From positions 416,001 to 480,000 of the forward strand of contig CAWAMW010000002.1 in assembly GCA_963783305.1 (NCBI GenBank): a stretch of 64,000 bases of DNA, written 5' to 3'. Below are positions 18,001 to 30,000 of this stretch, piece by piece. Position 1 is the first letter of the stretch, and each line of letters starts with the position of its first letter. The stretch comes from an uncultured Gemmatimonadales bacterium. GTDB lineage: Bacteria; Gemmatimonadota; Gemmatimonadetes; Longimicrobiales; RSA9. The position numbers are program-made.

Positions 18001-21000
18001 ACCAGCAGCCACCTGGGCGACGAGTACCAGCGCCGGTTCGGGCCGTCCAGCATCAACTTCTCCCGGGACGGCGCAGACCTGACGCTGTACGCCCGACCCG
18101 CCGCCACCAGGGAGATCGGGCTCGGCCTCTACGCCGGCGGCCTCTGGTCCCTCAACTCGCACCCGGAGGAATCGCGACGCTGGCGCGGCCGTGCGGGGTT
18201 GGAGCTGGACCCGTGGGAAGGCGCGCTCTGGCGCCCATTCGCCGCGGTCGACCTCGAGCTGGAGGAGGGCACCGCCCACGGCCCCCGCACCACGGTGCAG
18301 GCCGGCCTGTGGCTCCCCCGCGCCAACGACCGGCCGCTCCGCCTTGCAGTCGAGCTCATCAGCGGGCCCTCCGCCATGGGCCAGTTCACCCGCTACCGAA
18401 CTCGCCGCGCCGCCCTCGGCCTGCACTGGAACCCCTGACAGGTCGCTGAAAAAGGCAGTGGGCGGGAGCGAACGGCCGCTTGCCGCCAGGGTACGCACAG
18501 GTACGGGCCCGGTACCTTCGACGCCGCGCCAGCGGGTCCCGCAGGGAGCGGAGCGACCGGAGGGATCGACCCCGACCCGCCTCCCCCCGCCGTTTCAGCG
18601 ACGCGCAAAGAGAAAGCGCCGGGCCCTTTCGGACCCGGCGCCTCTCGCTCCCCTCCCAGGAATCTACTCCAGGGAGATCAGCTTTTCAGCGGACTTACTC
18701 GCAGACCGCCGAGTTCGCCTGCATGTACTGCAGCGTGTTCTCCAGCATGGCCACCGTGAAATTCGGGTGGTGCACGCCATGGCTGCCGTCGTAGTGGAAC
18801 AGCTCGAAATTCACCATCGCCGCTGCGAACGGCTCCGGGTACGTACCGACGATCGGGTGACCCGTCTCGTCGAGCAGCCCCTCGGCCTGGAGACAGACCT
18901 CGAGCTCGTGCAGCAGGCCCTCGACCGTCGTGGCGATGCCATTCAGATCGAAGTCGGTGCCCGAAGCCGTCGAGTGACAGTCCTCACACACCCCGGCCGT
19001 GACATTGAAGCTGTGGCTGCCGGTCGTGGGCGAGACATTGTCCCAGTCCATGTGGCAGCCCGTGCAGGTGTACGTGTTCCCGTGCGTCATCTTGCCCGTC
19101 GGGATCGTACGGTCGCCGTCGAACATCATCTCGTCCGGGACCGCCGCCGCCAGCACGTTCCCCTGCGTCCCGTAGTGCGGGCCGAAGTGGGTGCTGGTGA
19201 CATTGAATGTAGCCTCCATCGACGCGCTCGCCGACGGCCATTCGCTGTCGCGGCCCTGGTGACAGGTGGCGCACAGGTTGCCCTGGTACGTCTCGCCGTC
19301 ACGGGTACCGTTGAAGTCCACCGTGGTGCCCGTGAGGCGGACCTCGACCGGGTCGGTGGTCATCAGCGCGTAATCGCCGATCTCGAAATCGCCGTCGCCA
19401 TCCACATCGCTATGAACGTTGTGACAGGTGCGGCAGTTCATCGTGGTGTAGCCATGCGTCCAGTCGGCTTCCATGTCCGTCGTGAACTCCACGAAGCCCT
19501 GGTGCGTATGGCACATCACGCACGAGCCGCCGGCGTAGTCCGGCCCGCGCAGCTCGTAGTTGCCCGGTCCATGGGCGGACTGATCGAACTGGAACTCGAC
19601 CGCGACAATGGTCGCGTCCGAGCTATGACAGTCCGAACAGGTGTTGAGGGCGTTCTGACCCGGCTCGCCCGGTGCTCCCGGTGCTCCAGGTGTGCCTGGC
19701 GCTCCCGGTGCGCCCGGCTCACCCTCCGGACCAGTCGGACCCTGCGGTCCCTCGGGGCCCTCACAGGCCACCATGGAAAACGCAAGGAACGTCGCCCCCA
19801 CTAGAAGGGGTAGCTTTTTGATCATGTGTGTCTCGCCTCCCTGACGGGTGCTTGAAATGAGGATGCTGCATCCTGCGCCCGTTTCCCATCGTGACCCGCT
19901 GCGCACGTCCTCCTGAACGTGTCAACCGTAAGGCGTTGGAGGCGTCCTCACCCCCTGCCGATGCCATGCGGCGAGTTCTCACGCCCTGGGTTCGGGACGT
20001 GCCACAACCTAGGATTCGCGCACCGGCGGCGCTATACGGGATCGATTGACTCTTTGGGTGGGGGATCGCCCTACAGCACCTAAAACGCGCGCCAGCTCAG
20101 CCCCGCCGTCCAGCTCACGTCGTGCTGAGTGTCGTCCCAGTAGTCGCTCACCGCGTCCCGCGCCTGGAGGTCCAGCCGCAGCCGGCGCATGAGCGGGATC
20201 ACCGCCCCGCCCCCGACGTTCACCACCAGCGACGTGCCATCCTCCGGCGCCACCACCGCGTCGGGGGCACCCTCGAGGGCGCTGTTGTCGAACGCGTAGA
20301 TCTTCCCGCCGAGCCCGGCGGTGGCGTACGGTTGCACGCCGAGAGGGAGCCGGAGTCGGGTCGGAAAGGCCACGTCCAGGCTGACGATAGTGATGTCGGT
20401 GGGCACCCACCAGTACCGGCGCACCACGTTGGGCGGCGTGAACGGGCCGGAGTTCAGGATGGCGAAGGCGAGGTAGGTGTCGGTGTCGAGGGTGCGGAGC
20501 ACGGTGCCGCGGATCCAGACCCCGGTATCGCCCACCTCCAGCTCGGCTGTCAGCCCCACCACGCTGGTCCGGAGCACCGCCGCCTCCGTCCACTCCATCG
20601 GCCCCTCGCCCAGCTGGGTGACCTCGTAGTAGAACCAGTCGGCGGGCGTCAGCACCCCCGCCTGCGGCGTGAGCCGAAGCTTCAGGTCGACCTGCCCGGC
20701 GCCGGCGGAGGGAAACAGCAGTAGAGCGGCCAGGGCCGCCGTCGCGATCCGTGGTGTCATTGTCGTGCGCGGCTCGGGTGTCTGAACGTTCTGCTCGGTT
20801 CGTGTTCCGGGAAGGTATCCGAACGCCGCGCCGTTGGGAATCGGGGTTTTCCCCACTTCGTGAAGGGTACATCTTGGTACCATGAGACCCTCACCCGACC
20901 CCATCGCCCTCGCCTCGCTCGAATCGCCGCTCGGCACACTGCTGGCCGGCGCCACTCCCAGCGCCCTGGTCCTTCTGGTCTTCGAGCGGCCCGAGGAGGG

Positions 21001-27000: not shown

Positions 27001-30000
27001 CCACGCACGGGGCCGCCCGGAAGCCGTGCCCCGCCGTGTGGAACTCCGTGCCGGTCAACGTGTCCTCAACCGTGTACGGCACCACGTGGCAGCTGCCGCA
27101 CATCCGCGCATTGGACGCGCCGCCGTGCGGACCCTCCACCTCACCCGGCTCCAGCGGTGCGGCGGGCGGGAACCACCCGGCCGTACCTGCCAGCAGCCCC
27201 GTCTCCGGCGAGTGCGGGCCCAACCACTCCTGGACTCCCTGTGTGTCCGGGTTGGCGTGTCGGTCGTGGCACTGCGCGCACAGCGTCTGCTCCACGGCCA
27301 CACCTCCCAGCGGGAAGCGCAACTGGCCCTCGTTGCGCGCGCTGTGCGGGTCGTGGCAGACGGCGCAGGTAATCTGGGCGTCGTGGGAGGCGCTCGACAG
27401 CAGCTCCTGCTTGCCCAGGTAGTCCGCGGTCACGCCCAGCCGCAGCAGCGCGCCCTCGCCCGTGTGGCAGCTCGCGCACTCCGGCGCCCGGATCGCAGGC
27501 GGAAGGGTGACCTCCGCGTGGGGTGAGCTCTCCCACTCCTCCACGAACGGGTGATGCGCGCCCTGGTGGCACTCGCCACACCCGAAGGACAGGTCTATGC
27601 CCACGTCCACCGGCGCCAGCGGCACGTTGCCCGGGCCGGGCGCCATGACGTGCTCCAGCCCCGGACCGTGGCAGCTCTCGCACTGCACGTCCAGGTAACG
27701 GCCGTCCTCCGTGGTCACCGCGGCATGGCCGCCCTGGACCTCACCATCCTCCTCCGCCACGATATTGCCCAGGGAGTTGACCGTGTGGCACGCCTCGCAG
27801 AACTCACGCGCGCCGCCGCTCGCCTGCAGACCCTCCCACGCAGACGCGTGCGCCGTCTGCTGCCACTGCGCCTGGTAGTCGCCATGGCAGGCGCCGCAGA
27901 CCGTCAGCTTGTCATCGCTCGGCGGATCCAGGTAGCCGACGAAGCCGCCCGCGTCCCCGATCGCTCCGCTGAAGATCGGACGATCGTCGTAGACCACACC
28001 CTCGTCGACGCACGAACCCAGCGCCAGCGCTCCCGCGACGACCAGAAGGACTTCGGCCGCACGCTTGCCCATCGTTCTCATTCCGCCCCCGTTCGACATC
28101 TGGCTGAAGGCTCCGGCATGGCTCGCAGCGCCCCCGTTTTCAGCATCCGAAAGAGGCGCCCGGGCTCGTTGGAAGTCAAGTCGGGCCGATCCCTGAATCG
28201 GCGTCCGGGTTTTCCCCACGGTGCTGCGCCGCCACCAAAGCACCCGGGCGTCCCGGCAACTGGACCGCCCACCCCCGCGCAGGGTAGGATCTTTCCATGC
28301 CGACCGATCCCCCCGACATCACGCACGCGCTCAAGCGCCGCGCCACCCTCGAGGGGTTCAACCTCGTCGGTGTGGCCGCGCTCCAGGCCAGTGATCATGG
28401 GTCGTTCTATCGCTGGTGGCTGGAGCACGGACTCCACGGCTCCATGGAATACCTGGCTCGCGACGACGCCGTCGAGGCCCGGTTGGACCCGCTCGCCCGC
28501 TGGCCCGAGCTGCGCTCCGCGCTGGTCGTGGCCCACGAGTACGGCACCGCCGAGCCGGGCGATGCCGTCGACCCGCCCGACCGCGGCACCATCGCCCGCT
28601 ACGCCCGCGGCCGCGATTACCACAAGGTCGTGAAGAAGAAGCTGCTCCGGCTCCTCGGCTGGCTCGAGGCGGAGGTCGGACGCGATCTTCCCCACGCGCA
28701 CGCGTATGTGGACACCGGTCCTATCCTCGAACGCGACCTGGCCCGCCGGGCGGGAATCGGCTGGCAGGGCCGCAACACCATGCTCATCAACCCGCGCCGC
28801 GGCTCCTACTTCTTCCTCGGCTCCCTCCTGCTCCCACTCGAGCTGGAGCCCGACGAGCCGTTCACCGCCGACCACTGTGGCACCTGCACCGCCTGCCTCG
28901 ACGCCTGCCCCACCGGCGCACTGCTGGGCCGCGACGAGACCGGCGCGCCGGTCATGGACGCCACCCGCTGCATCTCGTACCTCACCATCGAGAACCGGGG
29001 CGCGATCCCGGAGGAGCTCAGGCCGCTCACGGGCAACCGCATCTACGGGTGCGACATCTGCCAGGAGGTGTGTCCGTTCAACCGTAAGTTCTCACCACCA
29101 GGGGTTGAGCCGGCGTATGCGGCGCGATCCCCGGGAGAATCGCCGTTCGGCGTGCAGCGGGCGCCAGGCTCGTCGTCCTCCCATCCCGGGACGGAGGCGC
29201 CATCATTGATCGCGCTGCTGGAGACTGCACTCGATGAGTCTGCATGGAACTCGTTCTCGAGGGGCTCGGCCATTCGCCGAGCCGGCCGGGCCGGCTTCGC
29301 GCGCAACGTCTGCTTAGCGCTCGGCAACTGGGGATCAGTCGACGCGGTACCGGTGCTGACTCGGGCGCTGTCTGACCCGGAGCCGCTTGTCCGCGCGCAC
29401 GCTGCCTGGGCGCTCGGCCGGATCCCGTCCAGTTCCGCTGCATCCGCACTCGAGGTGCAGGCTGCGAGCGAGTCGGATCCATCGGTCTCGAAGGAGGTCG
29501 CGGCCGCGCTTGGGAGCTGACGGCCCAACGGGAAATACAGGCGCATGGGCAGCCTCTTCAGCCAGACTACCCCCGTCTTGTTGTTGGCGCGCTTTCCACT
29601 GGCGATCCCGCATGCGATACCCGCATGCCTCGCTCCACGACGACGTCAGCCATGTCTGCGCCGTCGACGACAATGTCGGCGAAGCGGACCGGCAGGCCCA
29701 TCGCGGAATAGAAATCGGGGCGATCCTGCAGATGGAAATGCAGATGCGGCTCCGTGGAATTACCGGAGAACCCGCAGCGTCCGATGATGTCGCCCTGGCT
29801 GACGCTGTCTCCGACCTCCACCGGTATCGAGCCGGGGATGAGGTGCGCGTAGAAACCGTATTCGCCGTCGGCGTGCCGGATGATGACGTGATTGCCCGCC
29901 AGCTGTGTGGCGAGAAAATCCGGCATGAAGTACCCCGTGAACGGCGACTCGTGGTGCCCGTCGTGGAGCGCCACGATCTCTCCGCCCGCGGCGGCGAGGA

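What a model noticed while it worked through the whole genome (the two positions that open the first line are those of the whole stretch)
18695..28072. Lipoprotein hexahaem cytochrome on a collagen-like stalk: a widespread uncharacterised family beside a porin-cytochrome [...]
g00401 (376 aa) reads lipobox cysteine, then 12 uninterrupted Gly-X-Y triplets ([sequence left out]), then a six-haem domain that folds most like OcwA, the surface metal reductase of Thermincola; 6 kb away lie an MtrA-like 9-haem protein, a 484-aa putative barrel and a 16-haem protein (g00408-g00406). Boldest reading: the collagen triplets zip three chains into a rigid ~9-10-nm triple helix that holds an 18-haem head away from the membrane, a new architecture for extracellular or trans-periplasmic electron transfer, and it is the missing metal reductase of fermentative Mn/Fe reducers such as Labilibaculum. 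New would be the first collagen-stalked redox protein and a testable electron-transfer [...]
Evidence so far: Sequence of g00401 and Pfam Collagen 23-57; CxxCH counts: g00401 6, g00406 16, g00408 9. Of its 120 best homologs (E<=1e-44, 210-429 aa) 117 have >=5 consecutive GXY triplets (mode 9-11), 112 have exactly 6 CxxCH, 107 a lipobox-like start. Alignment of 40: five CxxCH invariant and the sixth at >=90%, six further invariant His, the lipobox C21 and four Gly of the triplets invariant. AF2 pLDDT 78, stalk <50 as expected for a monomer; Foldseek PDB best hit OcwA 6i5b E 1.3e-4, TM 0.46, then NrfA-type nitrite reductases. 461 loci in species genomes, among them cultured Labilibaculum manganireducens, L. 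filiforme, Ancylomarina euxinus, Marinifilum fragile, Draconibacterium orientale, Maribellus, S [...]
(Added by a program. Inside this text positions count along the whole contig: contig position 416,001 is position 1 of the stretch shown here. "Call 12" and the like, gene names such as g00115 and contig names such as C1 are that model's own, and its searches are not shown. The text may have been shortened before it was handed on; [...] marks where a part breaks off. The agent that wrote the report below was given it as the finding of a first reader that could run no searches.)

Follow-up and report, generated by a model that had tools for sequence, protein, structure and literature searches.

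The report
Collagen-stalked six-haem lipoprotein cytochrome
This gene encodes a lipid-anchored six-haem electron-transfer protein mounted on a short collagen-like stalk; the design is shared by hundreds of mostly uncultured bacteria, sits beside respiratory genes, and appears in no paper I could find.

Summary
Window 18698-19825 (-) encodes a 376-aa protein with a signal peptide, a lipobox Cys21, 12 unbroken Gly-X-Y triplets (23-58) and six CxxCH. Of 120 homologues, 117 keep 7-14 triplets.

The head belongs to the OcwA/OmhA/NrfA multihaem superfamily (VIA Z 14.5 and 14.0; profile E 2e-11 and 1e-13).

New here:
- A three-copy fold gave ipSAE 0.51 against 0.01 for the best control. It shows a stalk bundle plus cyclic head contacts.
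- The family's G-P-H-H motif aligns with OcwA's open-site His-His, so haem 2 may be five-coordinate.
- Some relatives have a 3-4-triplet stalk, an acidic linker or no stalk.

Context:
- In Bacteroidota, Ignavibacteria and Chloroflexota the gene lies beside a seven-haem plus cytochrome b pair of CbcBA type.
- In this Gemmatimonadota-like genome it follows a small outer-membrane barrel and ends at its own terminator.
- The 9-haem/barrel/16-haem module lies 3.8-8.3 kb away. That linkage recurs in 4 of 15 Gemmatimonadota loci.
- The 9-haem protein is OcwA/OmhA-like, not MtrA-like.

Trimerisation, cellular location and the electron acceptor remain inferred. Earlier notes of this scan describe the same family on other genomes. 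My paper searches found no description of it.

The parts
18698..19825 (-). g00401: collagen-stalked six-haem lipoprotein cytochrome, 376 aa (stop codon at 18695-18697)
   Evidence: Translation; Pfam; 120 homologues. It is the only copy in its genome.
19763..19825 (-). Signal peptide and lipobox (residues 1-21, M-V-A-C; Cys21 is the predicted lipidated first residue of the mature protein)
   Evidence: Read from the sequence. Cys21 is present in at least 90% of 117 aligned relatives. No dedicated lipoprotein predictor was available.
19652..19759 (-). Collagen-like stalk: 12 uninterrupted Gly-X-Y triplets (residues 23-58)
   Evidence: Pfam Collagen at 28.5 bits against a cut-off of 27.2. 117 of 120 homologues have 7-14 triplets. 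Pro fills 60% of X positions. All three copies bundle here in the three-copy fold.
18698..19651 (-). Six-haem head (residues 59-376) of the OcwA/OmhA/NrfA superfamily, with three C-terminal helices
   Evidence: AF2 pLDDT 88.2. VIA gave OcwA Z 14.5, OmhA Z 14.0 and NrfA Z 12.4. The profile against PDB sequences gave OmhA E 1.1e-13 and OcwA E 2.1e-11.
18606..18646 (-). G+C-rich hairpin followed by UUUCUCUUU, about 50 nt after the stop codon: a probable intrinsic terminator, so the gene ends its transcription unit
   Evidence: Sequence. The 111-nt fold gave -53.8 kcal/mol, z-score -3.3. The simple terminator scan did not list it.
20080..20760 (-). Small outer-membrane beta-barrel gene 254 nt upstream on the same strand. 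It neighbours the cytochrome gene in 8 of 15 Gemmatimonadota loci.
   Evidence: Alignment A4. AF2 pLDDT 85.8, all-beta. Foldseek matches OmpA, NspA, OmpX, OmpW and OprG at E 6e-6 to 4e-5. Neighbour counts.
17533..18438 (+). DUF1207 gene, convergent and downstream; present in 5 of 15 Gemmatimonadota loci
   Evidence: Pfam PF06727 at E 2e-19; counts.
26570..28087 (-). Nine-haem lipoprotein (L-G-S-C) of OcwA/OmhA type, first gene of a porin-cytochrome-like module
   Evidence: PDB sequence matches are OmhA E 2.3e-5, c554 E 5e-4 and OcwA E 5e-3. Residues 163-492 are 23-27% identical to heads of the target family.
25056..26561 (-). Putative outer-membrane barrel of about 470-500 aa between the two cytochrome genes
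   Evidence: Only a sub-threshold Pfam Porin_4 match (E 0.006). It holds the same position in L002, L021 and L053 at 35-71% identity. The fold was not predicted.
23608..25062 (-). Sixteen-haem cytochrome, third gene of the module. The TPR gene 23115-23591 (-) follows it here and in L002.
   Evidence: CxxCH count; Pfam Cytochrome_C7; conservation.

Best explanation
g00401 is exported, lipidated on Cys21 and loaded with six c-type haems.

**Proposed structure (inferred).** Three chains zip their 12 Gly-X-Y triplets into one collagen triple helix. The helix starts one residue after the lipid anchor and ends four residues before haem 1. At the textbook rise per residue (recalled), it would be a rod of about 10 nm. 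The rod would hold a trimeric 18-haem head at a set distance from the anchoring membrane.

**Proposed function (inferred).** The head is a trimmed relative of the cell-surface metal reductases OcwA and OmhA. It would act as the outward electron-transfer end of an anaerobic respiratory branch. Electrons would leave menaquinol through a CbcBA-type cytochrome b plus multihaem c complex. That complex is adjacent in other phyla but on another contig here. Electrons would then reach the stalked head, which passes them to an outer-membrane conduit or to an external or soluble acceptor. Haem 2 may keep an open coordination site, as OcwA haem 5 does.

**Shown:** the sequence architecture, family-wide conservation, the fold and superfamily, and the gene neighbourhoods.

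**Inferred:** lipidation, the triple helix and trimer, the location, the direction of electron flow and the acceptor.
For: **Architecture**
- The gene structure and its conservation are shown.
- The stalk starts 1 residue after the Cys in 93 of 117 relatives. It ends 4 residues before the first CxxCH in 78 of 117.
- 121 of 143 normal-length cluster representatives have 5 or more triplets. 882 clusters match at E <= 1e-30.

**Trimer**
- Three copies of residues 35-367 gave ipSAE 0.16, 0.57 and 0.51, median 0.51. The best of 3 controls scored 0.01.
- At least 87% of contacts were shared between runs, and partner pLDDT was at least 78.
- The mark was reached by 20 of 30 solved homomers and 1 of 23 solved monomers in the tool's calibration.
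- The interface comprises stalk residues 35-57 of all three copies plus cyclic head contacts: 70-79 and 261-270 of one copy against 87-96, 108-112 and 121-132 of the next.
- The interface avoids the C-terminal helices, which the superfamily review names as oligomerisation-forming (PMC9250108, passages). A simple copy of a solved relative is therefore unlikely.

**Superfamily**
- Searches place the head in the OcwA/OmhA/NrfA superfamily.

**Respiratory context**
- 54 of 81 loci hold another cytochrome with 4 or more haems within 10 kb.
- A CbcB-like cytochrome b lies nearby in 25 of 81 loci: 20 of 32 Bacteroidota, 2 of 4 Ignavibacteria/Chlorobiota, and 3 of 19 Chloroflexota as fusions.
- bioRxiv 10.1101/2021.04.15.440034 (passages read) reports cbcBA homologues in Prolixibacter, Marinilabiliales and Labilibaculum, and fusions in Chloroflexi.
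- This genome carries such a fusion (897 aa, 7 haems) next to an 8-haem gene on contig C16. They are 37% and 56% identical to the pair in L041.

**Regulation**
- A Crp/Fnr-type regulator is adjacent in 24 of 32 Bacteroidota loci.
Against: **On the trimer**
- Nothing here measures oligomeric state.
- One of the three complex runs scored only 0.16.
- The tool's calibration used two copies, not three, and only 8 of the 12 triplets were in the job.
- Predicted head-interface columns are no better conserved than the rest of the head: mean 0.43 against 0.45, p 0.57.
- Twelve triplets without hydroxyproline may be only marginally stable (recalled knowledge).

**On the need for a stalk**
- Some Bacteroidota relatives have only 3-4 triplets.
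- An Actinomycetota locus has a 30-40-residue acidic non-collagen linker after the lipobox Cys.
- Planctomycetota relatives and one Chloroflexia relative have no stalk and no lipobox.

**On the respiratory link**
- In Gemmatimonadota the CbcBA-type pair is never within 10 kb: 0 of 15 loci.
- Sequence identity to Geobacter CbcBA itself was not tested.

**On mechanism**
- A rigid insulating rod puts the head away from its own membrane, so how electrons reach it is unexplained.
Confidence: 0.55

Rival explanations
1. The Gly-X-Y run is a single-chain extended or flexible tether, not a triple helix. The protein would be a monomeric membrane-tethered electron carrier. Its head would diffuse within about 10 nm of the anchor, as proposed for other tethered cytochromes.
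For: - Relatives work with 3-4 triplets, with an acidic non-collagen linker of similar length, or with no linker at all.
- Stalk length varies from 3 to 17 triplets.
- The predicted head interface is not specially conserved.
- Short Hyp-free triple helices are marginal in stability (recalled).
- PgcA of Geobacter is a lipoprotein cytochrome with Pro-Thr repeat tethers (PMC5732950, passages read).
Against: - A mere linker need not keep Gly at every third residue. Yet the phase is unbroken in 117 of 120 relatives, with Pro in 60% of X positions.
- The run abuts the anchor and haem 1 with almost no spacer.
- The three-copy fold bundles the stalks and scores 0.51 against 0.01 for the best control.
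Confidence: 0.28
2. The protein is chiefly an enzyme: a periplasmic reductase for a small soluble substrate such as nitrite, hydroxylamine, NO or a sulfur oxyanion. It would use a five-coordinate haem 2. The stalk would only tether it.
For: - The head belongs to the NrfA/ONR/MccA/HAO superfamily.
- The invariant His217, with His at 218 as the majority residue of the 117 aligned relatives, aligns with the His-His pair of OcwA. That pair lies over the open distal face of OcwA's five-coordinate haem 5.
- OcwA reduces nitrite slowly in vitro (PMC6703420, passages read; PMC9250108, passages read).
- Leaving His217 aside, five conserved distal His candidates remain for the other five haems: 85, 138, about 249, 271 and 352.
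Against: - There is no CxxCK haem motif.
- No NrfH- or NrfBCD-type partner is the rule: NrfD appears in 11 of 81 loci.
- The two closest structures are cell-surface metal reductases, about 2 Z units above NrfA.
- Neighbourhoods are rich in large multihaem cytochromes.
Confidence: 0.12
3. One reading: in this organism the stalked cytochrome is a working partner of the nearby 9-haem lipoprotein / barrel / 16-haem module. It would feed or drain that outer-membrane conduit. This could be true together with the best explanation.
For: - The three-gene module lies within about 8 kb of the stalked cytochrome in the window, L002, L021 and L053. That is 4 of 15 Gemmatimonadota loci, at 33-74% identity.
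- The 9-haem protein shares the same head fold family.
Against: - The two are separate transcription units. An Ogt gene on the other strand and a nitronate-monooxygenase-like gene lie between them.
- The target gene has its own terminator.
- The module is absent within 10 kb in 11 of 15 Gemmatimonadota loci and in all other phyla.
- The barrel's fold was not verified.
Confidence: 0.25

Closest known systems
OcwA, nonahaem outer cell-wall cytochrome of Thermincola potens (PDB 6i5b; PMC6703420)
   Same: - Best structural match: VIA Z 14.5, rmsd 3.9 A over 243 residues, 19% identity; Foldseek E 7.8e-5.
- Profile E 2.1e-11.
- Shares the three C-terminal helices and the His-His motif over the NrfA-type haem.
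   Different: - Six haems rather than nine.
- Lacks the c554-like N-terminal module.
- It is a lipoprotein with a collagen-type stalk. The OcwA paper mentions no lipoprotein (0 occurrences in its text) and reports a weak dimer.
- It occurs mostly in diderm phyla.
OmhA, S-layer undecahaem cytochrome of Carboxydothermus ferrireducens (PDB 6qvm; PMC9250108, PMC7829351)
   Same: - VIA Z 14.0 over 241 residues at 20% identity.
- Best sequence-profile match, E 1.1e-13.
- The V-H-H-P motif aligns with the family's G-P-H-H-G-P motif.
   Different: - Eleven haems and 681 aa.
- No lipobox or collagen stalk is described for it. PMC9250108 was read in passages only; PMC7829351 was seen only in a search listing.
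NrfA / ONR / MccA / HAO multihaem reductases
   Same: Same C-terminal haem-core module and helices. VIA Z is 12.4 to 6.9 and profile E is 3e-9 for NrfA. Some members are trimers or hexamers (recalled).
   Different: No CxxCK haem motif, no recognised catalytic residue set, a smaller protein, lipid-anchored and collagen-stalked.
Prokaryotic collagen-like surface proteins (Scl1/Scl2 of Streptococcus pyogenes, BclA of Bacillus anthracis)
   Same: - Uninterrupted Gly-X-Y with Pro mostly in X.
- Weak matches to the Scl models and to the BclA chain 1wck.
- In those proteins a globular domain is carried on a triple-helical stalk (recalled).
   Different: - Far shorter: 12 triplets here, against many tens in Scl proteins (recalled).
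- The anchor is an N-terminal lipid, not LPXTG or the exosporium.
- The head is a redox protein.
PgcA of Geobacter sulfurreducens (PMC5732950)
   Same: A predicted lipoprotein c-type cytochrome of extracellular electron transfer that contains proline-rich repeat segments.
   Different: Its repeats are Pro-Thr-x, lie between haem motifs, and showed no collagen-like CD signal in that paper. It has three haems and an unrelated fold.
CbcBA (and CbcL) inner-membrane quinol oxidoreductases of Geobacter (bioRxiv 10.1101/2021.04.15.440034)
   Same: These are the partner, not the protein itself. The neighbouring pair has seven CxxCH plus a PF01292 cytochrome b, in that gene order. This matches the paper's description. 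The paper names the same Bacteroidota taxa and the Chloroflexi fusions.
   Different: No direct sequence comparison with the Geobacter proteins was made. In this window's genome the pair is fused and unlinked to the stalked cytochrome.

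Membership tests
OcwA/OmhA/NrfA multihaem cytochrome superfamily (C-terminal module) | Shared fold and haem-core scaffold | tested here: met
   VIA gave OcwA Z 14.5 (243 aa, rmsd 3.9), OmhA Z 14.0 and NrfA Z 12.4 and 12.1, well above unrelated rows at Z 4.5 or less. Foldseek gave OcwA at E 7.8e-5.
OcwA/OmhA/NrfA multihaem cytochrome superfamily (C-terminal module) | Detectable sequence homology | tested here: met
   The profile of 117 sequences gave OmhA E 1.1e-13, OcwA E 2.1e-11 and NrfA E 3.1e-9.
OcwA/OmhA/NrfA multihaem cytochrome superfamily (C-terminal module) | Three long C-terminal helices | tested here: met
   The model has helices at 294-314, 331-346 and 354-371.
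OcwA proper (nonahaem cell-surface reductase) | Nine haems including a c554-like N-terminal module | tested here: not met
   There are six CxxCH. The match covers OcwA residues 184-525 only.
OcwA proper (nonahaem cell-surface reductase) | Five-coordinate haem with a distal His-His pocket | tested here: inconclusive
   His217, with His at 218 as the majority residue in relatives, aligns with OcwA's H-H at chain positions 351/352. I equate these with the paper's 380/381 by a numbering offset of 29 (PMC6703420). Coordination itself cannot be read without coordinates or spectroscopy.
NrfA nitrite reductase | CxxCK active-site haem motif | tested here: not met
   All six motifs are CxxCH. 112 of 120 relatives have six CxxCH.
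Collagen-like protein (Pfam PF01391) | Uninterrupted Gly-X-Y repeat scoring above the curated cut-off | tested here: met
   28.5 bits against a cut-off of 27.2, over residues 23-57. There are 12 triplets, with Pro in 60% of X positions family-wide.
Collagen-like protein (Pfam PF01391) | Three chains form a triple helix | tested here: inconclusive
   Model only: ipSAE 0.51 against 0.01 for the best control, with the stalks of all three copies in contact. There is no physical measurement.
Bacterial lipoprotein | Signal peptide ending in a lipobox with an invariant Cys | tested here: met
   The N-terminus reads K-K, then a hydrophobic stretch, then M-V-A-C. The Cys is kept in at least 90% of 117 relatives. 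104 of 120 fit my lipobox pattern. No LipoP- or SignalP-type tool was available.
Bacteroidota surface-lipoprotein export signal (C-X-K-(D/E)2-X; PMC5080379) | Lys at +3 followed by two acidic residues | tested here: not met
   The window protein has C-E-G-P. 16 of 32 Bacteroidota relatives have C-[TV]-K-[ED]-G, which gives Lys at +3 but only one acidic residue. This is a partial resemblance only.
Porin-cytochrome (Pcc/Mtr-type) outer-membrane conduit | Target gene is part of an operon of periplasmic cytochrome, barrel and lipoprotein cytochrome | tested here: not met
   Such a three-gene module exists at 23608-28087. The target is a separate unit 3.8 kb away with two unrelated genes between. 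The linkage appears in 4 of 15 Gemmatimonadota loci.
CbcBA-type quinol oxidoreductase (neighbour in other phyla) | Di-haem cytochrome b (PF01292) next to a seven-haem c-type cytochrome | tested here: met
   In L079, PF01292 matches at E 8e-24 beside a 312-aa protein with 7 CxxCH. The pairing appears in 25 of 81 loci.
CbcBA-type quinol oxidoreductase (neighbour in other phyla) | Sequence homology to Geobacter CbcB and CbcA themselves | not tested
   No Geobacter sequence was available to me. The link rests on the paper's statement (bioRxiv 10.1101/2021.04.15.440034, passages read).

The most novel reading that the evidence does not exclude
The stalk is a rigid triple-helical rod hinged at three lipid anchors. 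It would act as a crane or spacer for an 18-haem head.

- **In diderms:** the head would be exported to the cell surface and held above the lipopolysaccharide layer. The acidic residue after the lipid Cys is found only in the diderm phyla. Half of the Bacteroidota relatives carry a Lys-Glu or Lys-Asp insert that resembles their surface-export signal.
- **In monoderms:** the head would be pushed through the wall zone.
- **Function:** it would be the terminal reductase for Mn(IV), Fe(III) or other insoluble acceptors in Marinilabiliales, Gemmatimonadota, Chloroflexota and Acidimicrobiia. No metal reductase is known in any of these (recalled; not searched).

This would be the first redox enzyme mounted on collagen.
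Probability: 0.2. Interest if true: 0.88.

Novelty: new variant of a known kind. Interest (0 to 1): 0.72.

Why it matters
Multihaem cytochromes move respiratory electrons beyond the cytoplasmic membrane. How the gap across the periplasm or cell wall is bridged is an open problem outside Shewanella and Geobacter.

This family offers a structural answer: a head related to known surface metal reductases, held at a fixed distance of roughly 6-12 nm by a collagen-type rod.

The family is large and broad:
- 882 clusters at 50% identity match at E <= 1e-30.
- More than 570 related stretches were found in species genomes.
- The 80 loci kept fall in seven labelled taxon groups.

The carriers include sediment and soil groups whose anaerobic respiration is poorly understood. 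Cultured carriers make the idea testable: Labilibaculum, Marinifilum, Draconibacterium and Mangrovibacterium.

It would also be a new use of the collagen fold in bacteria. The stalk length could serve as a simple readable marker, perhaps reflecting envelope geometry.

Tried and rejected
**Failed calls that I repeated**
- the locus search with the 32-row alignment failed because no stretch was conserved enough. I repeated it with a narrower 23-row alignment.
- a coordinate slip, corrected.
- a search term with forbidden signs, re-sent.

**Tests that gave no link**
- The Gemmatimonadota small barrel against DUF5777 of the Bacteroidota operon: hhalign probability 0.6%, so no relation was shown.
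- The Ignavibacteria 431-aa one-haem protein against DUF5777: probability 0.7%, and no Pfam family. Its Cyc2-like look (one N-terminal haem, porin-sized body) is untested.
- Conservation of the predicted head interface showed no enrichment.
- The sigma-70 promoter scan found nothing between the barrel gene and the target.

**RNA evidence**
- Three metatranscriptome runs from 2 studies held about 5% of the sampled words.
- Laid on 18600-21200, they gave short contigs 90-100% alike over parts of the target gene.
- These come at least partly from relatives and could be DNA carry-over, so I draw no conclusion on expression. The near-absence of cover over the barrel gene is not evidence of anything.

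**Literature searches**
- 'collagen-like' with 'multiheme cytochrome': 0 papers.
- 'DUF5777': 0 papers.
- collagen / multiheme / lipoprotein / triple helix: none of the 15 listed titles (of 584 papers holding 3 of the 4 terms) was relevant.
- collagen / extracellular electron transfer / cytochrome / CXXCH: 3 papers held the terms and 2 were listed. The one I opened (PgcA) uses collagen only as a comparison. I did not open the other.
They may list the Bacteroidota homologues.

**Rejected reading**
- MtrA-like for the 9-haem protein.

Full report
**1. What is there**

The ORF at window 18695-19906 (-) has an internal ATG. From it, 18698-19825 gives 376 aa. A GGGAGG box lies 9 nt upstream.

The protein reads as follows:
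- An N-terminus with K-K, a hydrophobic stretch, then M-V-A-C (Cys21).
- One Glu, then 12 unbroken Gly-X-Y triplets (residues 23-58).
- Four residues later, the first of six CxxCH motifs.

Pfam finds Collagen at 28.5 bits (cut-off 27.2) and several multihaem models. No NCBIfam model comes near its cut-off.

A strong hairpin followed by a U-rich run lies about 50 nt after the stop codon. The gene therefore ends its transcription unit. It is single-copy in its genome.

**2. The stalk is more than chance**

Of 120 homologues, 117 carry 7-14 triplets, and the three without are truncated at the N-terminus. 112 have six CxxCH.

Over 1149 triplets, X is Pro in 685. Y is mostly Ala, Gln, Glu, Asp, Pro or Thr.

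The run begins one residue after the Cys in 93 of 117 relatives. It ends four residues before haem 1 in 78 of 117.

In this 70% G+C genome, 22 of 22,699 open frames have 8 or more G-x-x repeats. By my reading of the runs printed, this is the only Pro-rich collagen-type run.

An exhaustive profile search found 882 clusters (50% identity) at E <= 1e-30. Of the 143 normal-length representatives among the best 150, 121 have 5 or more triplets, 12 have 3-4 and 10 have none. By my reading of their starts, about six of those ten are N-terminal fragments.

**3. The head**

AF2 on 117 rows gave pLDDT 88.2 and pTM 0.81.

| Search | Result |
|---|---|
| Foldseek, PDB | OcwA E 7.8e-5; next best MccA E 0.018 |
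| VIA, full scan | OcwA Z 14.5; OmhA Z 14.0; NrfA Z 12.4 and 12.1; ONR Z 11.5; MccA Z 8.0; HAO Z 6.9; unrelated rows Z 4.5 or less |
| Family profile vs PDB sequences | OmhA E 1.1e-13; OcwA E 2.1e-11; NrfA E 3.1e-9 |

The six haems correspond to the last six of OcwA. The c554-like N-terminal module is missing.

In the alignment, the family motif G-P-H217-H218 lies on OcwA's H-H. Residue 218 is Tyr in the window protein. By a numbering offset of 29, I equate that OcwA pair with H380/H381. In OcwA this pair sits over the open distal face of five-coordinate haem 5 (PMC6703420 and PMC9250108, passages read).

Besides His217, the conserved non-motif histidines are 85, 138, about 249, 271 and 352. 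That is exactly enough for five bis-His haems. Haem 2 (Cys102) may therefore be five-coordinate. I could not check this on coordinates.

**4. Trimer test**

Three copies of residues 35-367 were folded with controls. This construct holds 8 of the 12 triplets and the whole conserved head, the most the 1000-residue limit allows.

- ipSAE was 0.16, 0.57 and 0.51, median 0.51. The best of three controls scored 0.01.
- Runs shared at least 87% of their contacts, and partner pLDDT was at least 78.
- The mark was reached by 20 of 30 solved homomers and 1 of 23 solved monomers in the tool's calibration. That calibration used two copies, so the counts hold only roughly here.
- The confident interface is the stalk of all three copies plus a cyclic head-to-head contact: residues 70-79 and 261-270 against 87-96, 108-112 and 121-132.
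- The interface does not use the C-terminal helices that the superfamily review calls oligomerisation-forming.

Against this, the interface columns are no more conserved than the rest of the head (p 0.57). One run scored low.

**5. Natural variants**

| Variant | Where found |
|---|---|
| 3-4 triplets | Some Bacteroidota (L011, L027, L029) |
| Lipobox followed by a 30-40-residue acidic non-collagen linker | Two paralogues in an Actinomycetota locus (L051) |
| No lipobox and no stalk | Planctomycetota (L065, L073) and one Chloroflexia locus (L018) |

The head can evidently work without a collagen trimer, so the stalk looks like a spacer module. Median stalk length is 8-11 triplets in every well-sampled phylum.

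The residue between the Cys and the first Gly splits by envelope type:
- Glu in Gemmatimonadota (14 of 16).
- Glu (15) or [TV]-K-[ED] (16) in Bacteroidota (of 32).
- Glu (3) or T-K-E (1) in Ignavibacteria/Chlorobiota (of 4).
- Ala in Chloroflexota (15 of 19).
- Thr or Ser in Actinomycetota (5 of 7).

This suggests a lipoprotein-sorting signal that matters only with two membranes. The Bacteroidota insert resembles, but does not fulfil, the C-X-K-(D/E)2 surface-export signal (PMC5080379, passages read).

**6. Neighbourhoods**

The analysis covers 80 loci plus the window, using six-frame ORFs clustered by BLAST. 54 of 81 loci hold another cytochrome with 4 or more haems within 10 kb.

*Bacteroidota (32 loci).* There is a conserved cluster, annotated by Pfam and counted:

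| Gene | Loci (of 32) |
|---|---|
| Crp/Fnr regulator | 24 |
| The stalked cytochrome | all |
| One-haem lipoprotein | 23 |
| DUF5777 beta-barrel | 24 |
| Monohaem cytochrome c | 17 |
| Seven-haem cytochrome with PF01292 cytochrome b | 20 |
| Fused ResB/CcsA haem lyase | 16 |

*Other phyla.* The same cytochrome b subfamily lies near the gene in 2 of 4 Ignavibacteria/Chlorobiota loci. In 3 of 19 Chloroflexota loci it appears as a 7-haem::cytochrome b fusion.

This pair fits the description of CbcBA. The paper on CbcBA names cbcBA homologues in Prolixibacter, Marinilabiliales and Labilibaculum, and fusions in Chloroflexi, as possible markers of extracellular electron transfer (bioRxiv 10.1101/2021.04.15.440034, passages read).

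Anaerolineales loci instead show Rieske/cytochrome b-multihaem and NrfD/FeS/8-haem modules, plus two-component regulators.

**7. This window and its phylum**

Best hits carry Longimicrobiales and Gemmatimonadota names.

In Gemmatimonadota no CbcB-like gene is within 10 kb (0 of 15 loci). The genome does carry a 7-haem::cytochrome b fusion of 897 aa next to an 8-haem gene on another contig. They are 37% and 56% identical to the Chloroflexia pair in L041.

The most frequent Gemmatimonadota neighbours are:
- A small outer-membrane barrel, in 8 of 15 loci. Here it is at 20080-20760, on the same strand, 254 nt upstream. AF2 gave pLDDT 85.8, and it is OmpA/OmpX/OmpW-like.
- A SnoaL-like lipoprotein, in 7 of 15 loci. 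It is not in the window.
- DUF1207, in 5 of 15 loci. Here it is at 17533-18438.

The 9-haem / putative barrel / 16-haem module (23608-28087) recurs near the gene in L002, L021 and L053 only. An Ogt gene on the other strand and a nitronate-monooxygenase-like gene separate it from the target.

The 9-haem protein has a lipobox. It matches OmhA, c554 and OcwA, not MtrA. Its last roughly 330 residues are 23-27% identical to heads of the target family. The barrel's fold was not verified.

**8. Reading**

*Shown:*
- A lipobox, collagen repeat and six-haem architecture under strong family-wide selection.
- Membership of the OcwA/OmhA/NrfA superfamily.
- Respiratory, often Crp/Fnr-associated, neighbourhoods.

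*Inferred:*
- A trimeric rod of about 10 nm. This uses 36 residues at the textbook rise per residue (recalled).
- An 18-haem head that passes electrons outward from a CbcBA-type quinol oxidase.

*Open:*
- Which membrane and which face carries the anchor.
- How electrons reach a head held away from its own membrane. Options are a hinged rod, soluble monohaem carriers encoded beside it in Bacteroidota, or contact with the opposite membrane.
- The acceptor.
- Whether haem 2 binds substrates.

**9. Novelty**

None of the four literature searches turned up a collagen-type stalk on a cytochrome. Sources name relatives only 'cytochrome c3 family protein', 'collagen-like protein' or 'hypothetical protein'.

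Earlier notes of this same scan describe the family, and eight- and nine-haem cousins, on other genomes. They agree with this reading but are not independent evidence.

I file it as a new variant of known kinds: an OcwA-type cytochrome plus a bacterial collagen stalk.

Noticed in passing
window 26570-28087 (-): The '9-haem MtrA-like' protein is a lipoprotein (L-G-S-C). Its solved relatives by sequence are OmhA, cytochrome c554 and OcwA. It is therefore an OcwA-type nonahaem in a diderm, placed in a barrel-containing three-gene module.
   Followed up: partly
L038:11207-12502 and L043:11201-12496 (Ignavibacteria): Directly after the stalked cytochrome lies a 431-aa protein with a single CxxCH near its N-terminus and no Pfam family. 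This architecture is reminiscent of fused monohaem-porin proteins such as Cyc2 (recalled). In Bacteroidota the same position holds a one-haem lipoprotein plus a DUF5777 barrel, possibly a split version.
   Followed up: partly
81 loci, residue after the lipid Cys: The residue between the Cys and the first Gly is acidic in Gemmatimonadota, Bacteroidota, Ignavibacteria and Marinimicrobia. It is Ala, Thr or Ser in Chloroflexota and Actinomycetota. Half of the Bacteroidota relatives insert [TV]-K before it. This may be a sorting signal.
   Followed up: partly
proteins P0123, P0183, P0207, P0233: Very long relatives without a stalk carry two or three tandem copies of an 8-9-haem unit in one chain: 1946 aa with 24 CxxCH, and 1342 and 1327 aa with 18 each. 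They may be covalent versions of an oligomeric head.
   Followed up: no
own genome, contig C16:26853-30838 (-): A 7-haem::cytochrome b561 fusion (897 aa) lies next to an 8-haem gene of the PF11783 type. The same pair sits 1-3 kb from the stalked cytochrome in Chloroflexia loci L037, L041 and L049.
   Followed up: partly
ESM Atlas clusters: Myxococcota clusters of 420-465 aa combine Pfam Collagen (26-52% of members) with Cytochrom_C552 (23-40%). Collagen stalks therefore occur on larger NrfA-like heads too.
   Followed up: no
L015:7118-8659 (Anaerolineales): The histidine kinase just upstream of the stalked cytochrome has two CxxCH motifs in the ORF as called. It may be a haem-c redox sensor controlling the cluster.
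   Followed up: no
window 28297-29520 (+): An epoxyqueuosine reductase QueG gene with C-terminal HEAT repeats. It looks ordinary and unrelated to the finding.
   Followed up: no
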